A DNA stretch of 29,619 nt from a virus (IMGVR_UViG_3300042876_000208:64001-93619); one strand, 5' to 3'. Counted from the first letter of the stretch, positions 14,473-23,239 are shown. Numbers and translations: made by a program. Notes: generated by a model from the sequence alone, not told the origin.

Positions 14473-14501
14473 ATTATACAACATAATAAAAGGATTGTCA
14501 A
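14473..14501 (-). promoter_or_regulatory. Sigma70-type promoter, leftward
   Basis: TTGACA-17 nt-TATAAT, perfect consensus on the minus strand. Confidence 0.8.
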
Positions 14502-14504
14502 TAG

Positions 14505-14957
14505 ATGAAAATTAAAATCGGCAACTTATGGGACTCAAAAGATGATTTAATCTTTGTGACTACTAATTCATATATAAGGAACGATGGTGCTTTAGTAATG
14601 GGTCGCGGTGCGGCTCTGGAATGTAAAACTAGATACCCCGGAATAGAATATGATTTTGGTAATATGATTTCTAGATTACATAAGGTAGGCCCAATTTCTA
14701 ATCCTAGCGAAAAGTATGGTATACTTGTACATGAAACTTTACCAATAGGTATTTTTCAAGTAAAGTATCATTTTAGAGATGTGGCAGATACAAATCTAAT
14801 TTTGTATTCTACCCAATTACTAAATGAGCTAAGTAAGACAAAAACTATTTCTATAAATTTCCCAGGAATTGGTTTTGGTCAATTAGATGAAATGCAAGTA
14901 TTACCTATAATTTCTCAACTAAGTGATAATGTTACAATCTATAGATTTAGGAGATAA
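14505..14957 (+). CDS. Macro-domain protein (ADP-ribose binding or hydrolysis)
   Basis: KIGNLWD, FVTTN, LVMGRGAA and FPGIGFGQL macro-domain motifs. Confidence 0.75.
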   Translation: MKIKIGNLWDSKDDLIFVTTNSYIRNDGALVMGRGAALECKTRYPGIEYDFGNMISRLHKVGPISNPSEKYGILVHETLPIGIFQVKYHFRDVADTNLILYSTQLLNELSKTKTISINFPGIGFGQLDEMQVLPIISQLSDNVTIYRFRR

Positions 14958-14958
14958 G

Positions 14959-15315
14959 ATGAAAGTAATAGTAGCGGGTTCTCGTTCTATAACAGATATT
15001 AAATATGTTATTAAGGCTATGAAAGATTCTGGATTTGAAATTGACGAACTAGTTTCCGGTGGTGCAATTGGTGTAGATAGCCTAGCAGAATCTGTAGCTA
15101 GATTTAATGGAATCCCGGTTACTCAATTCCTACCGGATTGGGTTAAGTATGGTAAACGCGCCGGATTTGTTCGTAATGCTGAAATGGCAGATTATGCCGA
15201 TGCCCTAATAGCAGTTTGGGATGGTGAATCTCATGGTACAAGCAATATGATAGAACAGGCAATGAAAAATGGATTAAAAATTTATATTTATAAGGTAGAA
15301 CAAAATGGCCAGTAA
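14959..15315 (+). CDS. SLOG-family protein (YspA/DUF2493-like)
   Basis: KVIVAGSR, SGGAIGVD, AGFVRNAEM and LIAVWDGESHGT motifs; start moved to ATG 14959 after aggag. Confidence 0.8.
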   Translation: MKVIVAGSRSITDIKYVIKAMKDSGFEIDELVSGGAIGVDSLAESVARFNGIPVTQFLPDWVKYGKRAGFVRNAEMADYADALIAVWDGESHGTSNMIEQAMKNGLKIYIYKVEQNGQ

Positions 15316-15535
15316 AAATAAGAATGGTGAATGGATTTGCTCTTATTGTGAAAAGGTGTATGTCCACCCACAAGATGCCGATGTTTGTAGGGAGAGCCAC
15401 GATTTAATTTTGGTTCAATTAACAAAAGAGGAATTGAATAGAATAGTACAATTTCTATTTACGAAAGATGACGATTTATTGAGTGAACAATTAGTAAAAC
15501 GATTACAAAAATATTTGAAAAATCGAGCAATTTGA
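15305..15535 (+). CDS. Small Zn-finger-like protein
   Basis: WICSYCEKVY...CRESH. Confidence 0.6.
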   Translation: MASKNKNGEWICSYCEKVYVHPQDADVCRESHDLILVQLTKEELNRIVQFLFTKDDDLLSEQLVKRLQKYLKNRAI

Positions 15536-15539
15536 CCCC

Positions 15540-15568
15540 TTGACAAATAAAAAGAGTTGTGCTAAAAT
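15540..15568 (+). promoter_or_regulatory. Sigma70-type promoter heading the tRNA array
   Basis: TTGACA-17 nt-TAAAAT with TGn. Confidence 0.85.
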
Positions 15569-15629
15569 AGACCCATCGTTAAATTTAAGCACAAAATTGA
15601 AAAATGTGTTAGAATTAATTTAACAAAAT

Positions 15630-15701
15630 GGCCCGTTAGTTCAAAAGTAGAGCGTCTCTCTGTCGAAGAGAAGGTTAGGATAGCATAATTCCTACGGGTC
15701 G
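15630..15701 (+). tRNA. tRNA-Asp(GTC), atypical elbow
   Basis: Acceptor ggcccgt/acgggtc; anticodon arm tctct-ctGTCga-agaga; G73; T-loop AGCATAA. Confidence 0.8.
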
Positions 15702-15774
15702 CCTGTCTTAAAGGTTGCGTTTGTCGTAAAACAAACTAAGCGTGTGACCTTCAACGGGGTGCAATGCCCCAAGC

Positions 15775-15848
15775 GTTCCTATACGATAATCGGACTAGTC
15801 ATCCACACTCTCAATGTGGCAATGCGGGTTCAAGCCCCGCTGGGAACA
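15775..15848 (+). tRNA. tRNA-Glu(CTC)
   Basis: gttccta/tgggaac; ccaca-ctCTCaa-tgtgg; TTCAAGC T-loop. Confidence 0.9.
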
Positions 15849-15854
15849 CTACAT

Positions 15855-15927
15855 GCCCTCATAACACAACGGACAAGTGTAGAAGACTCTTAATCTTTTA
15901 ATCAGGGTTCGATTCCCTGTGAAGGCA
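15855..15927 (+). tRNA. tRNA-Lys(CTT)
   Basis: gccctca/tgaaggc; gaaga-ctCTTaa-tcttt; TTCGATT. Confidence 0.9.
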
Positions 15928-15928
15928 C

Positions 15929-15991
15929 TAGACTACTTACAGCAAATATAAAACAATTGACAGTTAATCAATCAACGTTTTATGTAGTCTA
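15929..15991 (+). ncRNA. ACAGCAA stem motif, copy 1
   Basis: tagactac/gtagtcta stem; ACAGCAA at 15939-15945; inner hairpin. Confidence 0.7.
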
Positions 15992-15995
15992 ATTT

Positions 15996-16067
15996 CGGGA
16001 AGTAGGGTAACGGTAGCCCACTACGTTTGGGACGTAGCCAGTGAAAGTTCAAGTCTTTCTTTCCCGA
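15996..16067 (+). tRNA. tRNA-Pro(TGG)
   Basis: cgggaag/tttcccg; ctacg-ttTGGga-cgtag; TTCAAGT. Confidence 0.9.
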
Positions 16068-16073
16068 CAACAT

Positions 16074-16146
16074 CATGTGGTAGCCCAATTGGTAAAGGCG
16101 TTGCGTTGTGGCCGCAAATATCTAGGTTCGACTCCTAGCCACCTGA
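16074..16146 (+). tRNA. tRNA-His(GTG)
   Basis: catgtgg/ccacctg; ttgcg-ttGTGgc-cgcaa; T at -1 opposite A73. Confidence 0.85.
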
Positions 16147-16152
16147 CTAGCG

Positions 16153-16303
16153 TACTATTTCCCGAAAGGAATAGTATCTATAAAGTCGATAGTTAGCGGA
16201 TATACAGAAAGTCCTATTATAATGGCTCTCTACTGTGCAGAGGAACTAACTACGTGACATATAGAGTTTTAAAACGTACTCGTGTCTTACGTTAAAGACA
16301 CCA
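16153..16303 (+). ncRNA. Unassigned multi-hairpin structured spacer RNA
   Basis: Long interrupted helix 16178-16196/16246-16264 plus flanking hairpins; no ORF support. Confidence 0.5.
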
Positions 16304-16306
16304 TAT

Positions 16307-16377
16307 GCGTGTATAGTGAAAAAGTATCACACCATCCTTCCAAGTTGGAATTGAGATTGCGAAATTCTCTACCCGCA
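16307..16377 (+). tRNA. tRNA-Gly(TCC), atypical elbow
   Basis: gcgtgta/tacccgc; ccatc-ctTCCaa-gttgg; T-loop TGCGAAA. Confidence 0.8.
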
Positions 16378-16382
16378 CCTAT

Positions 16383-16473
16383 GGATGTTAGCCGGATATT
16401 GGTTGAGCCGGAGCGGTCTGTAAAATCGTATGGCCTGGAAGAAGGCATATTAGTTCAATTCTAATAACATCCA
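16383..16473 (+). tRNA. tRNA-Tyr(GTA)
   Basis: ggatgtt/aacatcc; gcggt-ctGTAaa-atcgt; long variable arm. Confidence 0.9.
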
Positions 16474-16481
16474 CAAAACTT

Positions 16482-16552
16482 GGGGTACGTAATGTAACGG
16501 GAACATATCTTCCTTGCAAGAAGAACTAGGGGTTCGACTCCCACGCGCTCCA
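16482..16552 (+). tRNA. tRNA-Ala(TGC), irregular acceptor/T stem
   Basis: G3.U70 present; tcttc-ctTGCaa-gaaga; best fit is an 8-bp acceptor with a 3-4 bp T stem. Confidence 0.75.
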
Positions 16553-16603
16553 CTAGTAATACAACATATTCGGGTTCTATCTAGGAGAAAGGAAAGGTTT
16601 AAA

Positions 16604-16834
16604 GTGAAACTGTTTACGGATAAGGAATTTGGTTTGATTTTGGAAGCACTCGGCACTACTAAGGATAAGGCTACCGAAAGGGTAACTGCGGCAAAGAGTG
16701 ACCTTGAAACTTAGGTTACATCACTTACCGACAATATTAAAGAGGTCAGTGCAAGACTAACCGAACTTAGTAAGGAACAGAAAGAAAAGAGCAAGACTCT
16801 TAAGTTACTTGGTGGTGTACTAGCTAGACTATAA
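16604..16834 (+). pseudogene. 76-aa coiled-coil ORF interrupted by an in-frame TAG (16712-16714)
   Basis: Strong RBS then GTG; heptad-like sequence continues 39 codons past the TAG to TAA. Confidence 0.6.
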
Positions 16835-16845
16835 AAATTAAATAA

Positions 16846-16903
16846 AAAGATTACCTACAGCAACTATAAAAAATCAATTGGATGATAATTAAAGGTAATC
16901 TTT
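16846..16903 (+). ncRNA. ACAGCAA stem motif, copy 2
   Basis: aaagattacct/aggtaatcttt 11-bp stem; ACAGCAA at 16857-16863. Confidence 0.7.
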
Positions 16904-16905
16904 AT

Positions 16906-16980
16906 GTCCTTGTGGCGAAATGGCTCACGCACTACGCTTAGGACGTAGACAACCTGGAGGTTCGACTCCTCTCAAGGACA
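16906..16980 (+). tRNA. tRNA-Leu(TAG), short variable loop
   Basis: gtccttg/caaggac; ctacg-ctTAGga-cgtag; TTCGACT. Confidence 0.85.
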
Positions 16981-16984
16981 CTAA

Positions 16985-17046
16985 GCCAGCATCTAGAATG
17001 GTTCGATTCCATTCCCCTAGGGATGATGTAATGGAAACATACTGGC
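16985..17046 (+). ncRNA. Circularly permuted tRNA-like RNA (YrlA-like core)
   Basis: Order: gccag, T arm (aatgg-TTCGATT-ccatt), short hairpin, TG, D arm (atgt-aatGGaa-acat), A, ctggc. Confidence 0.7.
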
Positions 17047-17049
17047 AAT

Positions 17050-17120
17050 GACAACTTAACCAAGCGGCTAGGTAACTGTCTGCAAAACAGTTTAAGCGAG
17101 TCCGATTCTCGCAGTTGTCT
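17050..17120 (+). tRNA. tRNA-Cys(GCA)
   Basis: gacaact/agttgtc; actgt-ctGCAaa-acagt; U73. Confidence 0.9.
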
Positions 17121-17126
17121 CAATAC

Positions 17127-17164
17127 ACGCTCATCTCCTAGTGGTAAAGGAACTAATTTATGGA
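17127..17164 (+). pseudogene. 5' tRNA half remnant fused to the HNH start
   Basis: D-arm-like tcct-agtggtaa-agga, then ctaat-ttATGga; no 3' half. Confidence 0.45.
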
Positions 17165-17678
17165 AGAAATTTGGAAAGATGTTATCGGCTACGAAACATA
17201 TTATAAAGTGAGTACACGAGGAAGAGTGTTTAGCTATCGGTCTAATAGAATAGTTAAGCCCTCAAAAATAGGCTCAGGCTACTTATGTATATCTACTAGA
17301 TTAAATGGAAGAGCATCCCCCTGCCTAGCCTTAAGAATTCATCGTTTAGTAGCTATCGCTTTTTTGGACAATCCAGATAATTTACCAGAAGTAAATCATA
17401 TAGATGGTATAAAAACAAATAATGATATTACTAATCTAGAATGGTGTACACATCAAGAAAATGTTATACATGCCAGTAAGTTAGGGCTACTTCATATTAC
17501 ACGCGGCGTTGATTCTCCAGTGGCTAAACTCTTTAAAGAAGAAGTTGAACAGATAAGAGATTTGTATGCTACAAAAGCGTTTACACAATTAGAATTAAGT
17601 TTAATGTATGATGTATCAAGACCAACAATTTCAAGAGTAATAAATAATAAAGTATACTCCTTTAGCTCAGAAGTGTAG
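17160..17678 (+). CDS. NUMOD4-HNH homing endonuclease with C-terminal HTH
   Basis: EIWKDVIGYETYYKVSTRGRV; HRLVAIAF...VNHIDGIKTNN...NLEWCT; HTH-like tail. Confidence 0.9.
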   Translation: MEEIWKDVIGYETYYKVSTRGRVFSYRSNRIVKPSKIGSGYLCISTRLNGRASPCLALRIHRLVAIAFLDNPDNLPEVNHIDGIKTNNDITNLEWCTHQENVIHASKLGLLHITRGVDSPVAKLFKEEVEQIRDLYATKAFTQLELSLMYDVSRPTISRVINNKVYSFSSEV

Positions 17679-17729
17679 AGCGTTCGGTTTACATCCGAAA
17701 GGTCGGGATTGCAAAATTCTCAAGGAGTA
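17656..17729 (+). tRNA. tRNA-Val(TAC), atypical elbow
   Basis: actcctt/aaggagt; ttcgg-ttTACat-ccgaa; T-loop TGCAAAA; overlaps the HNH 3' end. Confidence 0.8.
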
Positions 17730-17733
17730 CTTT

Positions 17734-17807
17734 GTACCTTTCGTGATTACGGTTTAACACGCCATGCTGAAGACATGGAAAACTCAGTTCGACACTGAGA
17801 GGGTACA
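17734..17807 (+). tRNA. tRNA-Phe(GAA)
   Basis: gtacctt/agggtac; ccatg-ctGAAga-catgg; TTCGACA. Confidence 0.9.
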
Positions 17808-17873
17808 CTGTCTCGTTGTTCCCGAAGACACGCAAGCTATGGGATACTAAACTCTTTTTAGTAATCGGGACAT

Positions 17874-17900
17874 GCAGAAGTAGCTCAACTGGTCAGAGCT
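17874..17900 (+). pseudogene. 5' tRNA half (acceptor strand + D arm) truncated by an antisense HNH gene
   Basis: gcagaag-ta-gctc-aactggtca-gagc, then unrelated sequence. Confidence 0.7.
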
Positions 17901-18348
17901 TTATTAATCCGGCATGAATTTCTCTGTGACAGTTTGAACAAACTAAGATACATTTATCCAGTTCTATTTTTACTTTATTCCACGCTTTGTTAGTATTAGT
18001 TGAAATACTAAAATCTTTTGTATTTGGGTTCTTATGATGAAATTCAAGAGCCTCAACACACTTGGAATAACCACAAACACAACACTTACCGCCACAATAT
18101 TCTACTGCTTTTTGTTTTGTTCTTTTTCTAAATGATTTTATTCTAGGGTAGTCTTTTATTGGTGTATCTCTACAAGAATCACATAGTTTTCTGTATCGTT
18201 CTACTGGTTTTCCACAAATATGACAACCTCTTTCAACATCTATCTTTGCAACATGTCTAATATACAACTTGTTGTTTAAAATTGCAGAACAACTTCTAGA
18301 GCAAAACTTTGGGTTTTTTGTTTCTTTGCCACAATTTAAACACTTCAT
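17893..18348 (-). CDS. HNH endonuclease with N-terminal Zn fingers, antisense to the array
   Basis: MKCLNCGK...FCSRSC; CCVCGY...LEFHH...LDKCILVCSNCHREIH; start moved to ATG 18348 after aaaggag. Confidence 0.85.
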   Translation of the reverse strand: MKCLNCGKETKNPKFCSRSCSAILNNKLYIRHVAKIDVERGCHICGKPVERYRKLCDSCRDTPIKDYPRIKSFRKRTKQKAVEYCGGKCCVCGYSKCVEALEFHHKNPNTKDFSISTNTNKAWNKVKIELDKCILVCSNCHREIHAGLIKL

Positions 18349-18361
18349 TATTATCTCCTTT

Positions 18362-18437
18362 GGGTAGGTACTATCAATTGGTTCAGATGAGAATCCTGAT
18401 AAGGTTCTGTGTGCAGGTTCGATTCCTGCTCTACCCA
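18362..18437 (+). tRNA. tRNA-Ile(GAT)
   Basis: gggtagg/tctaccc; gaatc-ctGATaa-ggttc; TTCGATT. Confidence 0.85.
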
Positions 18438-18466
18438 CTCTATATACAGTAATTATATCATAAATT

Positions 18467-18528
18467 GCAGAAATATGTATCAAATGGTGATACACGAAAG
18501 GTTGGGAGTCCGAGTCTCTCTTTCCGCA
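18467..18528 (+). ncRNA. Anticodon-less tRNA-like RNA
   Basis: gcagaaa/tttccgc acceptor; 6-bp D hairpin with GG loop; cgaaag in place of the anticodon arm; T arm gggag-TCCGAGT-ctctc. Confidence 0.65.
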
Positions 18529-18627
18529 CAAGGTTACAAGCCTTACTACACTTAAGCCATTGTGTAGCCCCTAATAAGACAGCCGGTGCATCGTTAACGG
18601 TAGAAGGGCATCTAATCCATCGGCCAA

Positions 18628-18704
18628 GCTTGTGTGATGCAAATATGGCAGACATGTCTTGCTCAAAACGAGATTTTTTGAAGGTTCGAGTCCTTTCACA
18701 AGCA
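18628..18704 (+). tRNA. tRNA-Leu(CAA), short variable loop
   Basis: gcttgtg/cacaagc; tcttg-ctCAAaa-cgaga; TTCGAGT. Confidence 0.85.
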
Positions 18705-18717
18705 CTAGGAGAACATT

Positions 18718-19461
18718 ATGTTAATTAGTATTAGTGCAAGAGTTACCGTACCCGCTCTTAGAATAAGAGCTTATGCTGGTATTGAGAATGAAATTACTGG
18801 AATGTTATTCTATTCAAACCCCGTAGAAATACGTGAGGTTATCCCCGTAGGAACTGAGTTTTGGGGTAGAGTAGAAAGAGGTTGGATTTGTTTAAAGCAA
18901 GGTATCTTTACTTATACAAATCTAAGAAACTTTTCTTGGTATGTTGGTTCTACAAATTTATATAGAGTTGCCGCAGAAAGATGGCCAGAACTACACGGAC
19001 AGACTAGACCCCCGAACGGTGGCCCATTAGTCCAGGTAGCAAGTGATTCCATCAAAGGTGGCAAGTATATTTACCCACTAGATAAAGTGGCACAGGATTA
19101 TATTAGAATGTGGAACAACGCTCGTGGTTATGCTAAGATTGTAGCACCCGACGTCGGCCCCTCGCAAGGGATAGACCCATTAACCGGAAGACTTAAATGG
19201 AATTACTTAGTCTGGCCTTCCGTAACTAATAATCCTAATACTCTAAAGGTTGTGGAAACATTAGGTGATTGGTGTAGATTTGAAACCATTCCTTACGTGT
19301 TTCCCGTAGCAAAGGATATTAATCCTACAGCTACACCCTGGTTATTTCATAAGATGTGTGATAATATGGGTAATCCATTTATAGTAGATGGTGCTTATAT
19401 AATTCTACCTATATTTGGAAAGGCATGTTGGGTTCCAAGTAGAGCTTTAATAAAGTTATGA
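18718..19461 (+). CDS. Protein with an N-terminal SH3b-like (cell-wall-binding) domain
   Basis: VTVPALRIRAYAG...FWGRVERGWICL resembles bacterial SH3; remainder unrecognised. Confidence 0.55.
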   Translation: MLISISARVTVPALRIRAYAGIENEITGMLFYSNPVEIREVIPVGTEFWGRVERGWICLKQGIFTYTNLRNFSWYVGSTNLYRVAAERWPELHGQTRPPNGGPLVQVASDSIKGGKYIYPLDKVAQDYIRMWNNARGYAKIVAPDVGPSQGIDPLTGRLKWNYLVWPSVTNNPNTLKVVETLGDWCRFETIPYVFPVAKDINPTATPWLFHKMCDNMGNPFIVDGAYIILPIFGKACWVPSRALIKL

Positions 19462-19545
19462 GAGGTAGCCTGAGAGGTCAGAATTGGTCTTGAAAACCAT
19501 GCCATCCAGTGCCCCTGGGTGAGGGTTCGACTCCTTTACCTCCCG
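19460..19545 (+). tRNA. tRNA-Ser(TGA), weak D arm
   Basis: ttggt-ctTGAaa-accat; long variable arm; TTCGACT; G73. Confidence 0.7.
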
Positions 19546-19549
19546 CTAT

Positions 19550-19636
19550 TGAGAATTGACAGAGTGGCAATGTGTACGTTTGCTAAACGTAAGCCATCCT
19601 TGAGTGGATGCACAGGTTCAATCCCTGTATTCTCAG
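19550..19636 (+). tRNA. tRNA-Ser(GCT)
   Basis: tgagaat/attctca; tacgt-ttGCTaa-acgta; long variable arm; G73. Confidence 0.85.
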
Positions 19637-19641
19637 CTTAT

Positions 19642-19714
19642 TGACGAGTCGTTTAAATGGATAGACATCGCACTCTGGATGCGAGAAGTGTAGGTTCGAC
19701 TCCTACCTCGTCAG
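19642..19714 (+). tRNA. tRNA-Gln(CTG)
   Basis: tgacgag/ctcgtca; tcgca-ctCTGga-tgcga; TTCGACT. Confidence 0.9.
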
Positions 19715-19735
19715 CTAGTAAGAAAGGAGATAATT

Positions 19736-19918
19736 ATGGGAAGTATAGATATATTTCTGATTGTTTCTATAATTGCCATAATCATAGCGATTATTGCTAC
19801 AATAATTATGGCTATAGCATTGATACGGTTCATTAAAAGAATGAACGAACTAGACAAACAATTTGAGCAAACGATTAACACCCTTTTAGAGTATAAAAGG
19901 GGTCTTGACAAAAAATAA
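19736..19918 (+). CDS. Small membrane protein (60 aa)
   Basis: agaaaggag RBS; one long TM segment then a charged tail. Confidence 0.7.
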   Translation: MGSIDIFLIVSIIAIIIAIIATIIMAIALIRFIKRMNELDKQFEQTINTLLEYKRGLDKK

Positions 19919-19933
19919 GACCTATGCTATAAT
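19905..19933 (+). promoter_or_regulatory. Perfect sigma70-type promoter upstream of the tRNA-like RNA and DUF2828 gene
   Basis: TTGACA-17 nt-TATAAT with TGn; ggtctt/aagacc inverted repeat overlaps the -35 box. Confidence 0.9.
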
Positions 19934-19937
19934 ACAC

Positions 19938-20065
19938 GAGTGGTTAAGCAACGCCGAGGTCGCAAGGTGCGTATAAAATAAAACTAATCTTGGGATTAGA
20001 CACAGCCACTCATATAAAACTTCTTCTGACTAAGAAAATTGTGGGTTCAATTCCCTCCCTCGGCT
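19938..20065 (+). ncRNA. tRNA-like RNA with the D arm replaced by ~60 nt and crossing helices
   Basis: gccgagg/cctcggc acceptor; T arm with TTCAATT; anticodon-like arm; gagtggt/gccactc crossing helix. Confidence 0.6.
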
Positions 20066-20071
20066 CTAAAC

Positions 20072-20127
20072 TAGATTGCATACAGCAACTATAATTCTTA
20101 CTGCAAATAGAGAGAAAATGCAATCTA
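20072..20127 (+). ncRNA. ACAGCAA stem motif, copy 3 (upstream of DUF2828)
   Basis: tagattgcat/atgcaatcta 10-bp stem; ACAGCAA at 20082-20088. Confidence 0.7.
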
Positions 20128-20170
20128 TGTTATTTCATTCAAATCAAGGATTAAGAAAAGGAGTATTGAA

Positions 20171-21589
20171 ATGACAAGGCTATTTAAGGCTCTAACAACA
20201 AATGACACAGTAACAACAAACGGAATGGTAACTAATTCCACATCCTCAAACTACCTATTGGATATGTTTTTCAGGATGGGTGGTTCAAGACAGATGGACG
20301 AGTCATCAATCCAGACCATGTTCCTAAACGCTTATCATGAGAACCCAGAATATGCTCTAAAGGCATTGTTCTACAATCGTGATATTCGTGGTGGGCAGGG
20401 TGAAAGACGCTCGTTTAGATTGATGTTTCAGGCTCTATGTATTGTAGACCCATCAACTGCAATTAGATTGATTAACTATGTTCCTGAGTATGGTAGATGG
20501 GATGACCTATTCGTAGCATTTGGAACAGATGTTTGGGAGTCTGTAACTGATTTAATCTTAAGCTCTCTAAAGCGTGGTGACAAGCTTTGTGCAAAGTGGA
20601 TGCCTAGACCTAACAAGGCAAAGGCTTACATTGCGAAGGATTTGGCAAAGGCTTGGGGTCTTTCACTAGATGACTATAGAGACTTAATTGTAAAGCATAC
20701 CGATGTAGTAGAAACTCTCATGTGCAAGAGAGAGTGGACTGCAATCAATTACAATCATGTTCCATCAAAGGCTAGCCATCAGTATAGAGGTGCATACCTA
20801 AAGCATGACGAGGATAGATACCGCGAGTGGCTGGGTAATCTAACTAAGGTTGATGAAAAGGGTAAGCCACTAGCTAAGGTAAATGCGGGTGCAATTTTCC
20901 CACATGATGTAATCAAGCCTTACTTTGGTTATGGCAACACAGATACTGATACATTGATTGAGGCCCAGTGGAAGGCACTTCCTGAGTATGCACCAAAGGG
21001 TAATAAGGTAATTTCTGTTTGTGACGTATCCGGTTCTATGAATGGTCTACCTTTGCTAGTATGTTTAGCATTGGGTATCTACACCGCAGAGAGAAACAAT
21101 GGTATCTTTAAGAATGGTTTCATTACATTCTCAGAGAGACCAGCTCTACAGATTCTTAAGGGTAAGACCTTGAGAGACAAGGTAAATGAACTACATAGAG
21201 CGCATTGGGATATGAACACAAATCTAGAGGCAGTATTTGAACTACTACTTACTTCCGCTAAGAGAGATAATCTATCCGAAGAGGATATGCCAGATACCAT
21301 CCTAATCCTATCCGATATGCAGTTTGATGCTTGTGTAAGAAATAAGAGCAACAGTGCTATTGATATGATTAAGAGAATGTATTCAGAAGCAGGATACAAT
21401 GTTCCTAATGTAATCTTTTGGAACTTGAATACAGGTAGTGGTATTCCAGTAAAGTATGATACTAGCGGCACAGCCGTTGTATCCGGGTTTAGTCCATCTA
21501 TTCTAAAGAGCATTATAAGTGGTAATATTAACCCAATTGCTCAGATGATGGAAGTTCTAAACTCAGAACGCTACTCAAAGATTAACTAA
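20171..21589 (+). CDS. DUF2828-family protein, Ro60/TROVE-like N-terminus + vWA domain
   Basis: RDIRGGQGER, VPEYGRWDDL, LCAKWMPR, VNAGAIFPHDV, VCDVSGSM (MIDAS DxSxS), NTNLEAVF, ILSDMQFD, IFWNL and SGFSP motifs. Confidence 0.9.
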   Translation: MTRLFKALTTNDTVTTNGMVTNSTSSNYLLDMFFRMGGSRQMDESSIQTMFLNAYHENPEYALKALFYNRDIRGGQGERRSFRLMFQALCIVDPSTAIRLINYVPEYGRWDDLFVAFGTDVWESVTDLILSSLKRGDKLCAKWMPRPNKAKAYIAKDLAKAWGLSLDDYRDLIVKHTDVVETLMCKREWTAINYNHVPSKASHQYRGAYLKHDEDRYREWLGNLTKVDEKGKPLAKVNAGAIFPHDVIKPYFGYGNTDTDTLIEAQWKALPEYAPKGNKVISVCDVSGSMNGLPLLVCLALGIYTAERNNGIFKNGFITFSERPALQILKGKTLRDKVNELHRAHWDMNTNLEAVFELLLTSAKRDNLSEEDMPDTILILSDMQFDACVRNKSNSAIDMIKRMYSEAGYNVPNVIFWNLNTGSGIPVKYDTSGTAVVSGFSPSILKSIISGNINPIAQMMEVLNSERYSKIN

Positions 21590-21590
21590 A

Positions 21591-21658
21591 AGAATGGTGT
21601 GGTCAGGGAAAGACCTTAAATCGTTGTTCAAGTGAGCCCCAAGATAACAGCCATTTCT
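21591..21658 (+). ncRNA. Structured element directly downstream of DUF2828
   Basis: agaatgg(t)/(g)ccatttct outer helix; ggtc-agggaaa-gacc hairpin. Confidence 0.45.
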
Positions 21659-21662
21659 AACT

Positions 21663-21878
21663 ATGAATAATTATTTGCAGTGGCAATGTTCAGCATCCGG
21701 TATAGAGTTTAATCCTAACGGATACATCACCGCAACCGGAATTTCAAATTTATATGAACCACAAGAGTATATACAAACTAGAGCTACCGTTGTTTTACAT
21801 AAGGTTAAATGTCCTTATTGCGGAAGCTATGGTGAAAGATTTAGTAATTGTACTCATTGTGGTGGTGCAATAGATTAA
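21663..21878 (+). CDS. Small protein with C-terminal double CxxC Zn ribbon
   Basis: KCPYCGS...NCTHCGG. Confidence 0.65.
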   Translation: MNNYLQWQCSASGIEFNPNGYITATGISNLYEPQEYIQTRATVVLHKVKCPYCGSYGERFSNCTHCGGAID

Positions 21879-21881
21879 CAC

Positions 21882-21933
21882 AGACTACATACAGCAAACA
21901 TACTTTGGGTAGCCACCCGCTTGGCAGTAGTCT
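21882..21933 (+). ncRNA. ACAGCAA stem motif, copy 4
   Basis: agactac/gtagtct stem; ACAGCAA at 21891-21897; inner gggt-agcc-accc hairpin. Confidence 0.7.
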
Positions 21934-21939
21934 TTATAT

Positions 21940-22010
21940 AGGTTGTTAGTATAGTGGTATTATAAACGTCTCCAAAACGTAGGACAGGAGTTCGATTCTT
22001 CTACGACCTG
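21940..22010 (+). tRNA. tRNA-Trp(CCA)
   Basis: aggttgt/acgacct; aacgt-ctCCAaa-acgta; G73. Confidence 0.9.
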
Positions 22011-22027
22011 CTAAAAAGGAATTAATT

Positions 22028-22156
22028 ATGTCTGAACTTCTACCATATGTAGCCGTAGCAATTATAGCTTTAATAATCACTGCCTATTTTGGATATAGTG
22101 TAACTATCGGATTAATTATAGCTATGATATTACAAAGTTTAGGCATAACGTTTTAA
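22028..22156 (+). CDS. 42-aa membrane peptide (MSELLPYVAVAIIALIITAYFG...)
   Basis: Hand-translated; aaaagga RBS; hydrophobic throughout. Confidence 0.55.
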   Translation: MSELLPYVAVAIIALIITAYFGYSVTIGLIIAMILQSLGITF

Positions 22157-22161
22157 ATCAA

Positions 22162-22235
22162 TGCGCGGTGGACTGGAGCGGTTCCAGCACGTCCCCATAA
22201 GTCGTATCACGAGAGTCCGAATCTCTCCCGCGCAA
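22162..22235 (+). tRNA. tRNA-Met(CAT), atypical (C33, extended D stem)
   Basis: tgcgcgg/ccgcgca; loop ccCATaa; TCCGAAT T-loop; lacks the three G-C pairs of initiator tRNA. Confidence 0.7.
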
Positions 22236-22299
22236 CTAATAGCTAAGTATATATAACGATTGGCTAACTACCACAACAACGTATACTTAGCTGTGCTAT

Positions 22300-22370
22300 T
22301 CCCGAATCGTACAATGGCAGTACGCGAAGCTGTTAACTTCGTTATCGTGGTTCGAGTCCATGTTTGGGAG
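22300..22370 (+). tRNA. tRNA-Asn(GTT)
   Basis: tcccgaa/tttggga; cgaag-ctGTTaa-cttcg; G73. Confidence 0.9.
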
Positions 22371-22374
22371 CTAT

Positions 22375-22450
22375 GCGACTTTAAACCCTCACGCTTCTAA
22401 CGTGCTGGAAGGTTAACGGATACATGCAGGTTCAAATCCTGTAAGTCGCG
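22375..22450 (+). ncRNA. Topologically rearranged tRNA-Arg(TCT)-like RNA
   Basis: Perfect acceptor gcgactt/aagtcgc and T arm; anticodon hairpin cacg-ctTCTaa-cgtg nested inside an aacc/ggtt stem; D-loop-like AACGGATA lies 3' of it. Confidence 0.65.
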
Positions 22451-22470
22451 CCTAGTAGAGAGGATACAAA

Positions 22471-22686
22471 ATGAACCACAAAAGAGAAGTAACATCTTAT
22501 ACCGAACGTTATTACACCATTGTAAAGTGGAATAATGAACTAGTAGGATATGAAGAAATAGAAATATTGGATAGTGAATTAAGTGAGGTTTCCGCAGTTC
22601 ATTATATGTATTCAAAATATGGCTTTGGAAAAGAATATAAAGTACGTCAAGTATTTATAACTAAGCTATATTATGATATAGAATAA
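22471..22686 (+). CDS. Hypothetical protein (71 aa)
   Basis: ORF with a gagagga RBS. Confidence 0.65.
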   Translation: MNHKREVTSYTERYYTIVKWNNELVGYEEIEILDSELSEVSAVHYMYSKYGFGKEYKVRQVFITKLYYDIE

Positions 22687-22691
22687 ATCAT

Positions 22692-22763
22692 GCCTTGTAA
22701 ACATATATAGTGATGTACCTGTCCTGTAAACAGGATAACTGGACGCAAGTTCCAGACGAGGCT
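22692..22763 (+). tRNA. tRNA-Thr(TGT), atypical elbow, C33
   Basis: gccttgt/acgaggc; cctgt-ccTGTaa-acagg; T-loop CGCAAGT. Confidence 0.7.
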
Positions 22764-22768
22764 CTAAA

Positions 22769-22863
22769 AGACTTGTAACAGAAAACTCAAATTAACCACA
22801 CAACACAAGAGTCTATAACTACGTTGTAGGTTCTTAGTTGTGTGATGACACAATATCAAGTCT
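22769..22863 (+). ncRNA. ACAGAAA variant of the stem motif, copy 5, long inner hairpin
   Basis: agacttg/caagtct stem; ACAGAAA at 22778-22784; inner cacacaac/gttgtgtg and ctataac/gttgtag helices. Confidence 0.6.
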
Positions 22864-22868
22864 AATTC

Positions 22869-22941
22869 GCACTCGTAGCTCAATGGTCAGAGCAACTGTC
22901 CTATTAACAGCAAGTTGGGGGTTCGACTCCCTCGGAGTGCA
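22869..22941 (+). tRNA. tRNA with TAT anticodon (Ile AUA reader or pseudo-tRNA), Thr-like acceptor
   Basis: gcactc/gagtgc; canonical D and T arms; loop ccTATta lacks U33 and purine 37. Confidence 0.6.
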
Positions 22942-22945
22942 CAAG

Positions 22946-22996
22946 GTTAAAGCCCCATAGAGTTTTTTCGCCTCCTTTCTACTATGGGGCTTTAAC
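22946..22996 (+). ncRNA. 15-bp hairpin with an anti-Shine-Dalgarno loop
   Basis: gttaaagccccatag/ctatggggctttaac; loop contains CCTCCTTTCTA. Confidence 0.65.
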
Positions 22997-22999
22997 TAC

Positions 23000-23028
23000 T
23001 TGACTTTTTGAACAAAAGGATTTATAAT
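23000..23028 (+). promoter_or_regulatory. Sigma70-type promoter after the array
   Basis: TTGACT-17 nt-TATAAT. Confidence 0.8.
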
Positions 23029-23239
23029 GTATAAAATAAAATGTCCCTTTTGCCTAGGTTGCATGGATTTGGTTTACACCCCACAAATGGAACAAGTATG
23101 GCATTGTTGGTTGTGTAAAACTTGGTACGTAAATGAGTTGGAAAATGGTTTGAGAAAAGTTGAAAATCCATTACTGGAGAATATAGATAACAAGCCAAAT
23201 TCCTAAAGGTAAGAATAAAAAAGAAAGGTACAAAAAATC

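What the first reader, a model, noticed from the sequence alone, without database searches (positions are those of the whole stretch)
15929..22863. Five copies of a covarying stem with a fixed ACAG(C/A)AA bulge, punctuated by tRNAs
Copies lie at 15929-15991, 16846-16903, 20072-20127, 21882-21933 and 22769-22863. Each outer helix opens AGA(C/T)T and closes A(G/A)TCT, with compensatory C-G/T-A changes (agactac, agattac, agattgc, agactac, agacttg). In all five, ACAG(C/A)AA starts exactly 9 nt after the A of AGA and is unpaired. The inner hairpin is unrelated in length and sequence. Four copies end 2-6 nt before a tRNA 5' end and three begin just after a tRNA or tRNA-like 3' end, so tRNA maturation would release them as ~50-95 nt RNAs. 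A conserved bulged helix with a variable apical domain is the Y RNA design logic. Alternatives: nuclease-processing or antitermination signal. Two apical loops look anticodon-like (ctGCAaa in copy 3, caGTTaa in copy 1).
Basis: partly seen in the sequence, partly recalled or inferred. Interest (0 to 1): 0.85.

Follow-up and report, generated by a model that had tools for sequence, protein, structure and literature searches.

The report
Phage Ro60-like protein's partner RNAs
Five small folded RNA modules in a soil phage's tRNA gene cluster share one "handle" (a 7-base-pair stem followed by unpaired CAGCAA). The same handle sits beside the gene for a Ro60-shaped ring protein in many unrelated phages, so they are most likely that protein's partner RNAs, a viral counterpart of Y RNAs that also resembles the "Class I" RNAs of social amoebae.

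Summary
AGAYTNNNNACAGMAA occurs five times in the window and in the whole 93.6 kb phage genome (0.04 expected in the window), always on the + strand. Each copy is closed by a compensated 7-bp helix.

The neighbouring gene (20171-21589, Pfam DUF2828+DUF7788) folds as a Ro60 ring with a vWA/MIDAS domain; the 13 best PDB matches are all Ro60/TROVE.

A covariance model of the handle was run on 88 distant IMG/VR loci, three cultured phages and the window:
- 110 hits, 109 of them on the gene's strand.
- 88 of the 99 IMG/VR hits lie within 500 nt of the gene.
- All seven helix pairs covary.

The elements also occur in Felix O1-like, Listeria P100 and mycobacterial phages. Some carry tRNA-like tops, one of which matches Rfam YrlA.

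No Rfam family reaches its threshold. The amoebal Class I RNA model (RF01414) picks these elements as its best sub-threshold hits.

Best reading (0.6): processed Y-RNA-like partner RNAs of the Ro60-like protein, with a new recognition motif (CAGCAA, not CGAA). Binding and expression are untested.

This scan has noted the same family on other DNA (324 notes, at least 242 genomes). I found no description of it in phages in the searchable literature.

The parts
15929..15991 (+). Copy 1: helix (T)AGACTAC/GTAGTCT(A), then TTA, CAGCAA, an inner helix ATAAAAC/GTTTTAT and a small hairpin. It lies between tRNA-Lys and tRNA-Pro.
   Evidence: CM R1 gives 31.8 bits, E 4e-5, and this copy was not in the training set.
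16846..16903 (+). Copy 2: helix AAAGATTACC/GGTAATCTTT, then TA, CAGCAA. The apical hairpin ATCA-ATTGGA-TGAT is D-loop-like. The copy ends 2-4 nt before tRNA-Leu.
   Evidence: CM 46.1 bits. It is the best RF01414 hit in the genome, at 18.6 bits.
20072..20127 (+). Copy 3: helix TAGATTGCAT/ATGCAATCTA, then CAGCAA. It lies in the 5' leader, 44 nt before the start codon of the Ro60-like gene and after a tRNA-like module.
   Evidence: CM 46.4 bits. RF01414 gives 15.9 bits over the full model length.
20171..21589 (+). Gene for a 472-aa Ro60-like ring protein (Pfam DUF2828 + DUF7788, PHROG 850 'RNA-binding protein') with a complete MIDAS motif (D285-x-S287-x-S289, T350, D382). It is the proposed protein partner.
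21881..21934 (+). Copy 4: helix AGACTAC/GTAGTCT, then ATA, CAGCAA. The apical hairpin is GGGT-AGCC-ACCC. It lies after a small zinc-ribbon ORF and ends 6 nt before tRNA-Trp.
   Evidence: CM 21.2 bits, E 0.01, and this copy was not in the training set.
22768..22864 (+). Copy 5 (divergent): helix AGACTTG/CAAGTCT, then TAA, CAGAAA, a 26-nt G-free run and a long 8+13 bp hairpin. It ends 5 nt before tRNA-Ile(TAT).
   Evidence: It has the same register and the same AGAYT opening as the other four, but CM R1 does not find it.
15540..15568 (+). Sigma-70-type promoter (TTGACA-17-TAAAAT, TG) ahead of the tRNA array that holds copies 1 and 2.
   Evidence: 11 of 12 matches. A consensus match only.
19905..19933 (+). 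Perfect sigma-70-type promoter (TTGACA-17-TATAAT, TG). It heads the unit: tRNA-like module, copy 3, Ro60-like gene, copy 4, tRNAs, copy 5.
   Evidence: 12 of 12 matches. A consensus match only.
19938..20065 (+). tRNA-like module (acceptor GCCGAGG/CCTCGGC, T-arm-like GGGTTCAATTCCC) immediately upstream of copy 3.
Evidence: Read from the sequence. A weak tmRNA T-loop hit lies at 20043-20055.

Best explanation
The five elements are genes for small non-coding RNAs of one family, here called 'CAGCAA-handle' RNAs. They are most likely the partner RNAs of the Ro60-like ring protein encoded at 20171-21589, and so functional analogues of Y RNAs.

Shown here:
- Each element is a 7-bp terminal helix in a fixed register, then 3 nt, then unpaired CAGCAA and a G-free stretch, then a freely variable apical module.
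- The family travels with the DUF2828/DUF7788 gene, on its strand.

Inferred:
- The elements are transcribed within two polycistronic units, from the promoters at 15540 and 19905. They are cut out as RNAs of about 52-95 nt. In this phage the cutting would largely be done by RNase P and tRNA 3'-end processing of the flanking tRNAs.
- The ring protein binds the helix plus CAGCAA handle.
- The variable tops, which in relatives mimic D, anticodon or T arms or a whole permuted tRNA, act as adaptors. They would bring the ring to tRNA-directed enzymes or exonucleases, as Y RNAs tether Ro60 to PNPase. This would serve quality control or protection of phage and host tRNA during infection, or counter-defence.
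For: (1) Non-random, strand-specific repeat. There are 5 matches against 0.04 expected, and 5:0 by strand in the genome.

(2) The protein has the Ro60 fold. The AF2 model has pLDDT 91 and pTM 0.90. The Foldseek PDB top 13 are all Ro60/TROVE (2i91_B E 3.8e-9, TM 0.66), and include D. radiodurans Rsr and Thermus phage phiLo Ro60. The Swiss-Prot top 6 are Ro60, telomerase p80 and other TROVE proteins. The MIDAS residues are invariant.

(3) Linkage to the gene. CM R1 was run on 685 kb, both strands: 88 IMG/VR loci chosen only for the protein at 36-54% identity, three cultured phages and the window. It gives 110 hits at E<=1, with 109 on the gene's strand. The 99 IMG/VR hits lie in 55 of the 88 loci, 88 of them within 500 nt of the gene's ends and none inside the gene. 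An independent descriptor gives 136 hits on the gene strand, 37 on the opposite strand and about 19 in shuffles.

(4) Structure. 98% of cells are paired. There are 246 double-change cells against 69 in shuffles, and all 7 pairs covary.

(5) Features that were not imposed by the search. The helix opens W-G-R. G follows the closing strand in 80 of 106 elements. Positions +16 to +21 are G-free. The 3' side is A-rich.

(6) The same handle carries tRNA-like tops in relatives.
- L009 5758-5836 has D and anticodon arms.
- L011 5843-5933 was called tRNA-Thr by ARAGORN.
- Mycobacteriophage L095 4028-4149 has a top that matches Rfam YrlA at 39.8 bits, E 1e-7.
- 14 of 100 elements have anticodon-loop-like hairpins, against 0.1 in shuffles.

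(7) Precedent.
- Phage phiLo Ro60 binds two Y-like RNAs encoded upstream of its gene and forms a complex with host PNPase (PMC12135203).
- In Salmonella the Y RNAs are encoded within the rsr-yrlBA-rtcBA operon (established knowledge; the bacterial Y RNAs are described in PMC4201824).
- Listeria phage P100plus has three elements, then the gene, then RtcB.
- Bas63 gp130, a Ro60-like protein of a Felix O1-like phage, counters the Ppl defence, and its authors guessed that neighbouring 'tRNA genes' might be Y RNAs (PMC11482910). I did not check that gp130 belongs to this protein family. That rests on Felixounavirus phages carrying it.

(8) Class I RNAs of Dictyostelium have the same architecture and are abundant, stable 42-65 nt RNAs (PMC7919456). 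This shows that the design can define a discrete small RNA.
Against: - There is no expression, end-mapping or binding data for this phage or any relative. The partnership rests on gene neighbourhood alone.
- The canonical Ro60 recognition motif (GGUCCGA, GNCGAA or CGAA) is absent. Neither Rfam Y_RNA nor YrlA matches the window's elements.
- The protein has no Pfam TROVE match, and its profile hits Ro60 sequences only at E 0.17.
- The terminal helix is only 7 bp and AT-rich, much shorter than Y RNA stems.
- None of the five copies has a promoter or terminator of its own, so release depends on unproven processing. In relatives most elements do not abut tRNAs, so the cutting enzyme is unknown.
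- About a third of loci with the gene show no element within 3 kb.
- In Dictyostelium the one proven direct binder of a Class I RNA is an RRM protein (Rnp1A), not a Ro60-like protein (PMC7919456).
Confidence: 0.6

Rival explanations
1. The elements act in cis and are never released. They would be binding sites for the Ro60-like protein, or for a host factor, on the polycistronic tRNA/mRNA transcripts. They could autoregulate translation of the gene from its leader, or block exonucleases and guide endonucleolytic cuts.
For: Copy 3 lies in the leader, 44 nt before the start codon. 53 of the 110 elements counted lie within 500 nt upstream of the gene. None of the five copies has a promoter or terminator of its own.
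Against: 41 of the 110 elements counted lie within 500 nt downstream of the gene, nearly as many as the 53 upstream. Tandem arrays of 2-5 copies are common. Copies 1 and 2 lie more than 3 kb upstream of the gene in another transcription unit, and copy 5 lies 1.2 kb downstream. Apical modules that mimic tRNA parts have no obvious use in a simple operator. The look-alike Class I RNAs are free, stable RNAs (PMC7919456).
Confidence: 0.2
2. The elements are punctuation of the tRNA array. They would be spacer hairpins that guide RNase P, Z, E or III processing or antitermination of the long tRNA precursor, independently of the DUF2828 protein.
For: In this window four of five copies end 2-6 nt before a tRNA, and one starts directly after a tRNA. 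Felix O1-like phage CL1 shows the same interleaving.
Against: Across relatives only 10-11 of 110 elements lie within 15 nt of a tRNA, and 30 of 59 loci with elements have no tRNA within 3 kb. The constant neighbour is the Ro60-like gene. Most tRNA junctions in this array have no such element.
Confidence: 0.08
3. The elements act at the DNA level, as inverted repeats serving as recombination sites (attC-like), miniature transposon ends, or protein-binding palindromes.
For: The conserved outer inverted repeats with a variable centre of variable length resemble the attC design.
Against: The orientation is strictly that of the gene's coding strand, 109:1. The arm sequences differ from copy to copy and stay complementary, which is not how transposon ends behave. 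The conserved CAGCAA is on one arm side only. I saw no integrase or transposase gene near the elements in the window's ORFs that I scanned.
Confidence: 0.03

Closest known systems
Bacterial and phage Y RNAs bound by Ro60/Rsr: YrlA and YrlB (Rfam RF02553; Chen et al. 2014, PMC4201824) and Yrl1/Yrl2 of Thermus phage phiLo (PMC12135203)
   Same: - They are encoded next to a Ro60-fold ring protein gene, on the same strand, often in several copies.
- The 5' and 3' ends pair in a terminal stem that flanks an unpaired conserved motif on the 5' side.
- The apical region is variable, and in some members it is a tRNA-like domain. One mycobacteriophage member has a top that matches the YrlA model at 39.8 bits.
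- RtcB ligase lies nearby in Listeria phage P100plus. The Salmonella rsr-yrlBA-rtcBA operon has the same arrangement (established knowledge).
   Different: - The motif is CAGCAA, not GNCGAA or CGAA.
- The stem is 7 bp in a fixed register, not a long bulged helix.
- The protein belongs to Pfam DUF2828+DUF7788, not TROVE.
- The window's five copies have no tRNA-like domain, and they match neither YrlA nor Y_RNA even at E<=5.
- Here they are interleaved with real tRNA genes.
Class I RNAs of dictyostelid social amoebae (Rfam RF01414, Dicty_Class_I_RNA; Kjellin et al. 2021, PMC7919456)
   Same: The architecture is almost point for point the same.
- The length is about 60 nt.
- A short compensated stem joins the ends, with a near-invariant G at its 5' start.
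- An unpaired motif follows directly after the 5' strand. The RF01414 consensus is CCUUACAGCAA, and copy 1 has ACUUACAGCAA.
- The middle is variable and A/U-rich, with an A-rich run before the 3' strand.
- The RF01414 consensus ends in UG after its closing strand. In the phage family's register this corresponds to the outermost closing base W followed by G.

The amoebal model picks the phage elements as its best hits in 4 of 5 phage genomes tested and in this genome.
   Different: - The scores (15.9-24.4 bits) are far below the gathering score of 41.5.
- There is no DUSE promoter, and the elements are not independent genes.
- In the window the base after the helix is A or T, not G.
- The proven direct binder in Dictyostelium is the RRM protein Rnp1A. 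I found no reported link to a Ro60-like protein.
- Class I RNAs were reported as unique to Dictyostelia.
Metazoan Y RNAs (Rfam RF00019)
   Same: The design logic is the same: a terminal stem that binds the ring protein, and a variable loop region that recruits other factors.
   Different: There is no sequence or model similarity. Metazoan Y RNAs are Pol III transcripts with a La-binding U tail and a long stem with a bulged C.

Membership tests
Y RNA / YrlA (Ro60-associated RNAs) | Encoded beside a Ro60-family gene, on the same strand | tested here: met
   109 of 110 CM hits lie on the gene's strand. 88 of the 99 IMG/VR hits lie within 500 nt of the gene. In the window, copies 3 and 4 flank the gene.
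Y RNA / YrlA (Ro60-associated RNAs) | Conserved Ro60-binding motif (GGUCCGA, GNCGAAN0-1G or CGAA) in the 5' strand of the terminal stem | tested here: not met
   No CGAA occurs in any of the five copies. The conserved motif is CAGCAA.
Y RNA / YrlA (Ro60-associated RNAs) | Match to the Rfam covariance models (RF00019, RF02553) | tested here: not met
   No hit on the elements at the gathering score or at E<=5. Only a mycobacteriophage relative's tRNA-like top hits YrlA, at 39.8 bits against a gathering score of 69.
Y RNA / YrlA (Ro60-associated RNAs) | tRNA-like domain (defines the YrlA subclass) | tested here: not met
   The window's copies have only small hairpins. A tRNA-like domain is present in some relatives.
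Y RNA / YrlA (Ro60-associated RNAs) | Physical binding to the Ro60 protein | not testable with these tools
   Needs EMSA, RIP or a structure.
Dictyostelium Class I RNA (RF01414) | [quoted passage not shown] | tested here: met
   The helix is 7 bp and all pairs covary. Four copies are 52-63 nt and copy 5 is 95 nt.
Dictyostelium Class I RNA (RF01414) | 11-nt motif next to the 5' stem strand, with T3, C6, C9, A10 and A11 near-invariant | tested here: inconclusive
   C6, C9, A10 and A11 are present in copies 1-4. T3 is present only in copies 1 and 5. Copy 5 has A at position 9 (motif positions from PMC7919456).
Dictyostelium Class I RNA (RF01414) | Score at or above the Rfam gathering threshold (41.5 bits) | tested here: not met
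   The scores are 18.6 and 15.9 bits in this genome and 19-24 bits in relatives. These are nevertheless the best hits in each genome.
Dictyostelium Class I RNA (RF01414) | DUSE promoter about 60 nt upstream, with an independent gene | tested here: not met
   The elements lie inside bacterial-type polycistronic units.
Ro60/TROVE protein family (for the neighbouring gene) | HEAT-repeat ring plus C-terminal vWA domain with MIDAS | tested here: met
   AF2 model with pLDDT 91. Full-length Foldseek matches to Ro60 with TM 0.59-0.66. D285-x-S-x-S, T350 and D382 are invariant.
Ro60/TROVE protein family (for the neighbouring gene) | Sequence match to Pfam TROVE (PF05731) or to Ro60 sequences | tested here: not met
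   Pfam gives only DUF2828 and DUF7788. The profile matches PDB Ro60 sequences at E 0.17. One Atlas cluster of DUF2828 proteins has TROVE on 16% of its members.

The most novel reading that the evidence does not exclude
The CAGCAA-handle RNAs and the DUF2828 ring form an ancient, mobile ribonucleoprotein that is distinct from the classical Ro60/Y RNA pair. It would be shared by tailed phages of very different hosts and by giant viruses, and in a eukaryotic branch would appear as the Class I RNAs of social amoebae. The handle would dock on the ring. The swappable tops, which copy single tRNA arms or a whole permuted tRNA, would program the particle to intercept tRNA-directed enzymes such as defence nucleases, repair ligases or exonucleases. 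A phage could then tune the particle simply by adding RNA cassettes to its tRNA array.
Probability: 0.25. Interest if true: 0.9.

Novelty: new variant of a known kind. Interest (0 to 1): 0.78.

Why it matters
- **A function for a large protein family.** DUF2828/DUF7788 has 6,665 cluster representatives and occurs in 711 cultured-phage records, and its function is unknown. A defined RNA partner would turn it into a testable RNP. One Ro60-like protein of a Felix O1-like phage, Bas63 gp130, is already known to counter a bacterial defence system (PMC11482910).
- **Hidden RNA genes.** Phage tRNA arrays would hold a second class of RNA genes that current annotation misses. This includes model phages such as the Felix O1-like phages, Listeria P100 and mycobacteriophages.
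- **Ro60 recognition.** The Ro60/Y-RNA principle would extend to a second recognition code, CAGCAA instead of CGAA.
- **Class I RNAs.** The close likeness to Dictyostelium Class I RNAs bears on two points. Their molecular role has been open since 2004, and they were reported as unique to social amoebae. The likeness suggests a candidate partner protein family and a possible viral connection.

Tried and rejected
- **Rfam.** At gathering score only tRNAs were found. At E<=5 on 15500-23100 nothing fell on the elements.
- **Sequencing runs.** Kind 'any' listed only DNA holders from rhizosphere metagenomes, which may be the source sample. Kind 'rna' listed no RNA holder. No reads were laid.
- **Close relatives.** blastn against cultured phages found only homing-endonuclease fragments.
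- **Alignment.** A MAFFT alignment of all 29 first-found elements did not bring the 3' arms into register. I therefore built the CM from 23 size-matched elements. Copy 4 had to be left out of that alignment because it misaligned.
- **Descriptors.** The first, loose Python descriptor (any helix of at least 7 bp, G-U allowed, CAGAAA allowed) was too permissive, giving 77 hits in the genome. I replaced it with a fixed-register one, which still gives about 9 chance hits per genome when CAGAAA is allowed. Copy 5 therefore rests on its register and its shared AGAYT opening, not on the model.
- **Promoter reading.** I considered reading ACAGCAAC-N-(C/T)ATAAAA as a promoter. The A-rich part is not conserved across relatives, and consensus sigma-70 promoters lie elsewhere.
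- **Terminator reading.** There is no T run after the helices.
- **Protein by sequence.** The profile of the protein family against PDB sequences gives Ro60 only at E 0.17.
- **Papers not held.** The supplements of Chen 2014 and the paper by Avesson 2011, which names the four Class I RNA-associated proteins, are not held. I could not learn whether a DUF2828 protein is among them.
- **Organism names.** The AFDB-clusters search confirmed eukaryote-sized DUF7788 relatives but gave no organism names. The presence of the protein in Dictyostelium was not established.
- **Literature.** Full-text searches for DUF2828, 'Ro-like' and Y RNA-like in phages found no description of these RNAs.

Full report
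**Setting**

The window is the last 29.6 kb of a complete 93,619-base virus record with direct terminal repeats. The DNA is held only by rhizosphere metagenome runs.

Up to about 14.2 kb the - strand carries replication genes: DNA polymerase A, DnaB, a RecA/UvsX-like recombinase and an exonuclease. From 14.5 kb the + strand carries about 20 tRNA genes, homing endonucleases, and a 472-aa gene at 20171-21589. That gene matches Pfam DUF2828 and DUF7788 and PHROG 850 'RNA-binding protein'.

Consensus sigma-70-type promoters lie at 15540-15568 and 19905-19933 on the + strand. Copies 1-2 and copies 3-5 therefore lie inside two polycistronic units. None has a promoter or terminator of its own.

**The observation**

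AGAYTNNNNACAGMAA matches five times, all on the + strand, against 0.04 expected. It matches five times forward and never in reverse in the whole genome.

Each copy is closed by a helix whose variable positions are compensated. RNAfold recovers this helix in all five copies. The apical parts are unrelated. Four copies end 2-6 nt before a tRNA, and one starts right after a tRNA. Only the 'anticodon-like' reading of two loops is not supported.

**The neighbouring protein**

The family is very large: 6,665 cluster representatives at E<=1e-3 and 711 cultured-phage records.

An AlphaFold2 model built from 66 sequences has pLDDT 91 and pTM 0.90. Its 13 best PDB matches are all Ro60/TROVE structures over the full length. 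They include Xenopus Ro60 (E 3.8e-9, TM 0.66), D. radiodurans Rsr and the Ro60 of Thermus phage phiLo. In Swiss-Prot models the best six are Ro60 proteins and telomerase p80.

The vWA half keeps an invariant MIDAS motif: D285-x-S-x-S, T350 and D382. By sequence the link is not significant. There is no Pfam TROVE match, and the profile matches Ro60 at E 0.17. I therefore call it a Ro60-fold protein of a distinct sequence family.

**Relatives**

Loci were fetched from IMG/VR through the protein alone, at 28-54% identity.

Reading the intergenic DNA showed the same design in tandem just upstream of the gene in L006, L008, L009, L010 and L011. The helices are entirely different in sequence, but CAGCAA keeps the same position.

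In 106 distinct elements the register is fixed:
- Helix positions 0-6 read W-G-R-N-T-N-S.
- Three nucleotides follow (W-T-W), then CAGCAA.
- About six G-free positions come next.
- An A-rich run precedes the 3' strand.
- G follows the closing strand in 80 of 106 elements.

The last three features, and the W-G-R opening, were not imposed by the search.

A fixed-register descriptor gives 136 hits on the gene's strand, 37 on the other strand and about 19 in shuffles.

A covariance model built from 23 size-matched elements with the 7 pairs was run on 685 kb, both strands. This set comprised the 88 IMG/VR loci, three cultured phages and the window.
- It finds 110 matches at E<=1, of which 109 are on the gene's strand.
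- The 99 IMG/VR matches lie in 55 of the 88 loci.
- 88 of those 99 lie within 500 nt of the gene's ends, and none lies inside the gene.
- On the model-derived alignment 98% of cells pair, all seven pairs covary, and double changes number 246 against 69 in shuffles. That alignment is fitted to the structure.

In the window the model finds copies 3 and 2, which were in the training set, at 46 bits. It finds copies 1 and 4, which were not, at 31.8 and 21.2 bits. Everything else is at or below 11.5 bits, and copy 5 is not found.

**Cultured phages**

The same elements are present in three cultured phages.
- Felix O1-like Escherichia phage CL1 has four, interleaved with tRNAs downstream of the gene, as in this window.
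- Listeria phage P100plus has three, between a promoter and the gene. An RtcB RNA ligase lies 1.3 kb downstream and a ROOL-like RNA lies upstream.
- Mycobacteriophage AvadaKedavra has three, between the 'Ro-like RNA binding protein' gene and a terminator.

**tRNA mimicry**

In the mycobacteriophage the middle element's top is a permuted tRNA-like domain. It matches Rfam YrlA at 39.8 bits (E 1e-7, gathering score 69). The outer helices of the YrlA model, which hold its CGAA motif, do not match.

Elsewhere the handle encloses D plus anticodon arms (L009) or a near-complete tRNA (L011).

Among 100 distinct elements, the counts of tRNA-arm-like hairpins are:

| Hairpin type | Elements | Mean in shuffles |
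|---|---|---|
| Anticodon-loop-like | 14 | 0.1 |
| D-loop-like | 8 | 0.5 |
| T-loop-like | 4 | 0 |

Of the window's five copies only copy 2 shows such a hairpin (ATTGGA loop).

**Comparison with the known**

Bacterial Y RNAs carry GNCGAAN0-1G, and YrlA carries a tRNA-like domain. That survey was limited to genomes annotated with a TROVE protein and found 22 phages (PMC4201824).

Phage phiLo Ro60 binds two Y-like RNAs encoded upstream of its gene. Each is described as a 5'-3' stem flanking a bulge with CGAA, and the RNP engages host PNPase (PMC12135203).

The present family has the same layout but a different motif and a different protein sequence family. It fails the Rfam models.

- The published description is RNAs of 42-65 nt with a short compensated stem joining the ends, an 11-nt motif next to the 5' strand, an invariant 5' G and a variable remainder (PMC7919456). 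This fits.
- The Rfam consensus reads GaUcuC-CUUACAGCAA-...-AAAAAc-GagAuC-UG.
- RF01414 aligns full-length to copy 3 (15.9 bits) and copy 2 (18.6 bits) as its two best hits in this genome.
- It also aligns to the elements of L006, L058, CL1 and P100plus at 19-24 bits, as the best hits of those records.
- All of these are far below the gathering score of 41.5.

The resemblance is real, but membership is not shown.

**Mechanism**

Shown: a conserved, covarying, strand-specific RNA-type module that is genetically coupled to a Ro60-fold protein across very distant phages.

Inferred:
- The module is the protein's binding handle.
- The elements are excised from the polycistronic transcripts. In this phage the flanking tRNAs make RNase P and tRNA 3'-end processing the obvious cutters. 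In most relatives they cannot be, because only about 10% of elements abut a tRNA.
- The variable tops act as adaptors, as Y RNA loops do for PNPase.

A role in tRNA-centred quality control, repair or counter-defence is suggested by three things: the tRNA-array context, the neighbouring RtcB in P100plus, and the report that Bas63 gp130, a Ro60-like protein of a Felix O1-like phage, counters the Ppl defence (PMC11482910). I did not check that gp130 belongs to this protein family. Nothing here tests that role.

The main rival is a purely cis-acting role on the transcripts. Punctuation of the tRNA array and DNA-level readings fit the comparative data poorly.

**Status**

This scan has noted the same family repeatedly on other DNA: 324 notes in at least 242 genomes. 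Several follow-ups reached the same reading, but those are not independent evidence. In the papers I could search, and in Rfam 15, the phage family is not described. I rate it a new variant of a known kind, the Ro60/Y RNA particle.

Noticed in passing
window 16604-16836: A small + strand ORF has an in-frame TAG at 16713 and then continues in frame to a TAA at about 16836. It could be two short ORFs, a pseudogene or a read-through. I saw no CTA-anticodon tRNA in this window, although relatives L006 and L010 carry one.
   Followed up: no
window 17125-18440: Two homing-endonuclease-type ORFs sit inside the tRNA array next to tRNA fragments: NUMOD4+HNH_3 at 17160-17678 (+), and a zinc-ribbon/HNH-like ORF at 17893-18351 (-). 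For example, 17868-17910 looks like a tRNA 5' half and tRNA-Ile follows at 18362-18438. These may be tRNA genes split by introns or endonucleases.
   Followed up: partly
window 16985-17046, 19938-20065, 22690-22766: Three non-canonical tRNA-like modules were not called by ARAGORN. The last has acceptor GCCTTGT/ACGAGGC and a CCTGTAA loop and lies directly upstream of copy 5. The second lies directly upstream of copy 3. They may be further partner RNAs without the CAGCAA handle, or odd tRNAs.
   Followed up: partly
L096 920-1471 (Listeria phage P100plus): A ROOL-RNA-like element (RF03087, 86 bits, E 2e-16, below the gathering score of 99.1) lies about 600 nt upstream of the three CAGCAA elements. 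An RtcB RNA ligase gene lies 1.3 kb downstream of the Ro60-like gene. Together they form an RNA-centred island.
   Followed up: no
window 14923-15315: A YspA/cpYpsA-related SLOG-family protein (Pfam YAcAr, E 2e-11) is encoded just upstream of the tRNA array.
   Followed up: no
window 14473-14501 (-) and 19905-19933 (+): Perfect TTGACA-17-TATAAT promoters occur on both strands at the divergence point and ahead of the Ro60-like gene. The unknown host therefore probably uses canonical sigma-70 boxes, which are not Bacteroidota-type promoters.
   Followed up: no
L006 8234-8305 and L010 11437-11514: Relatives carry a tRNA with anticodon CTA, a TAG suppressor that ARAGORN calls 'Pyl', inside the same tRNA arrays.
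   Followed up: no
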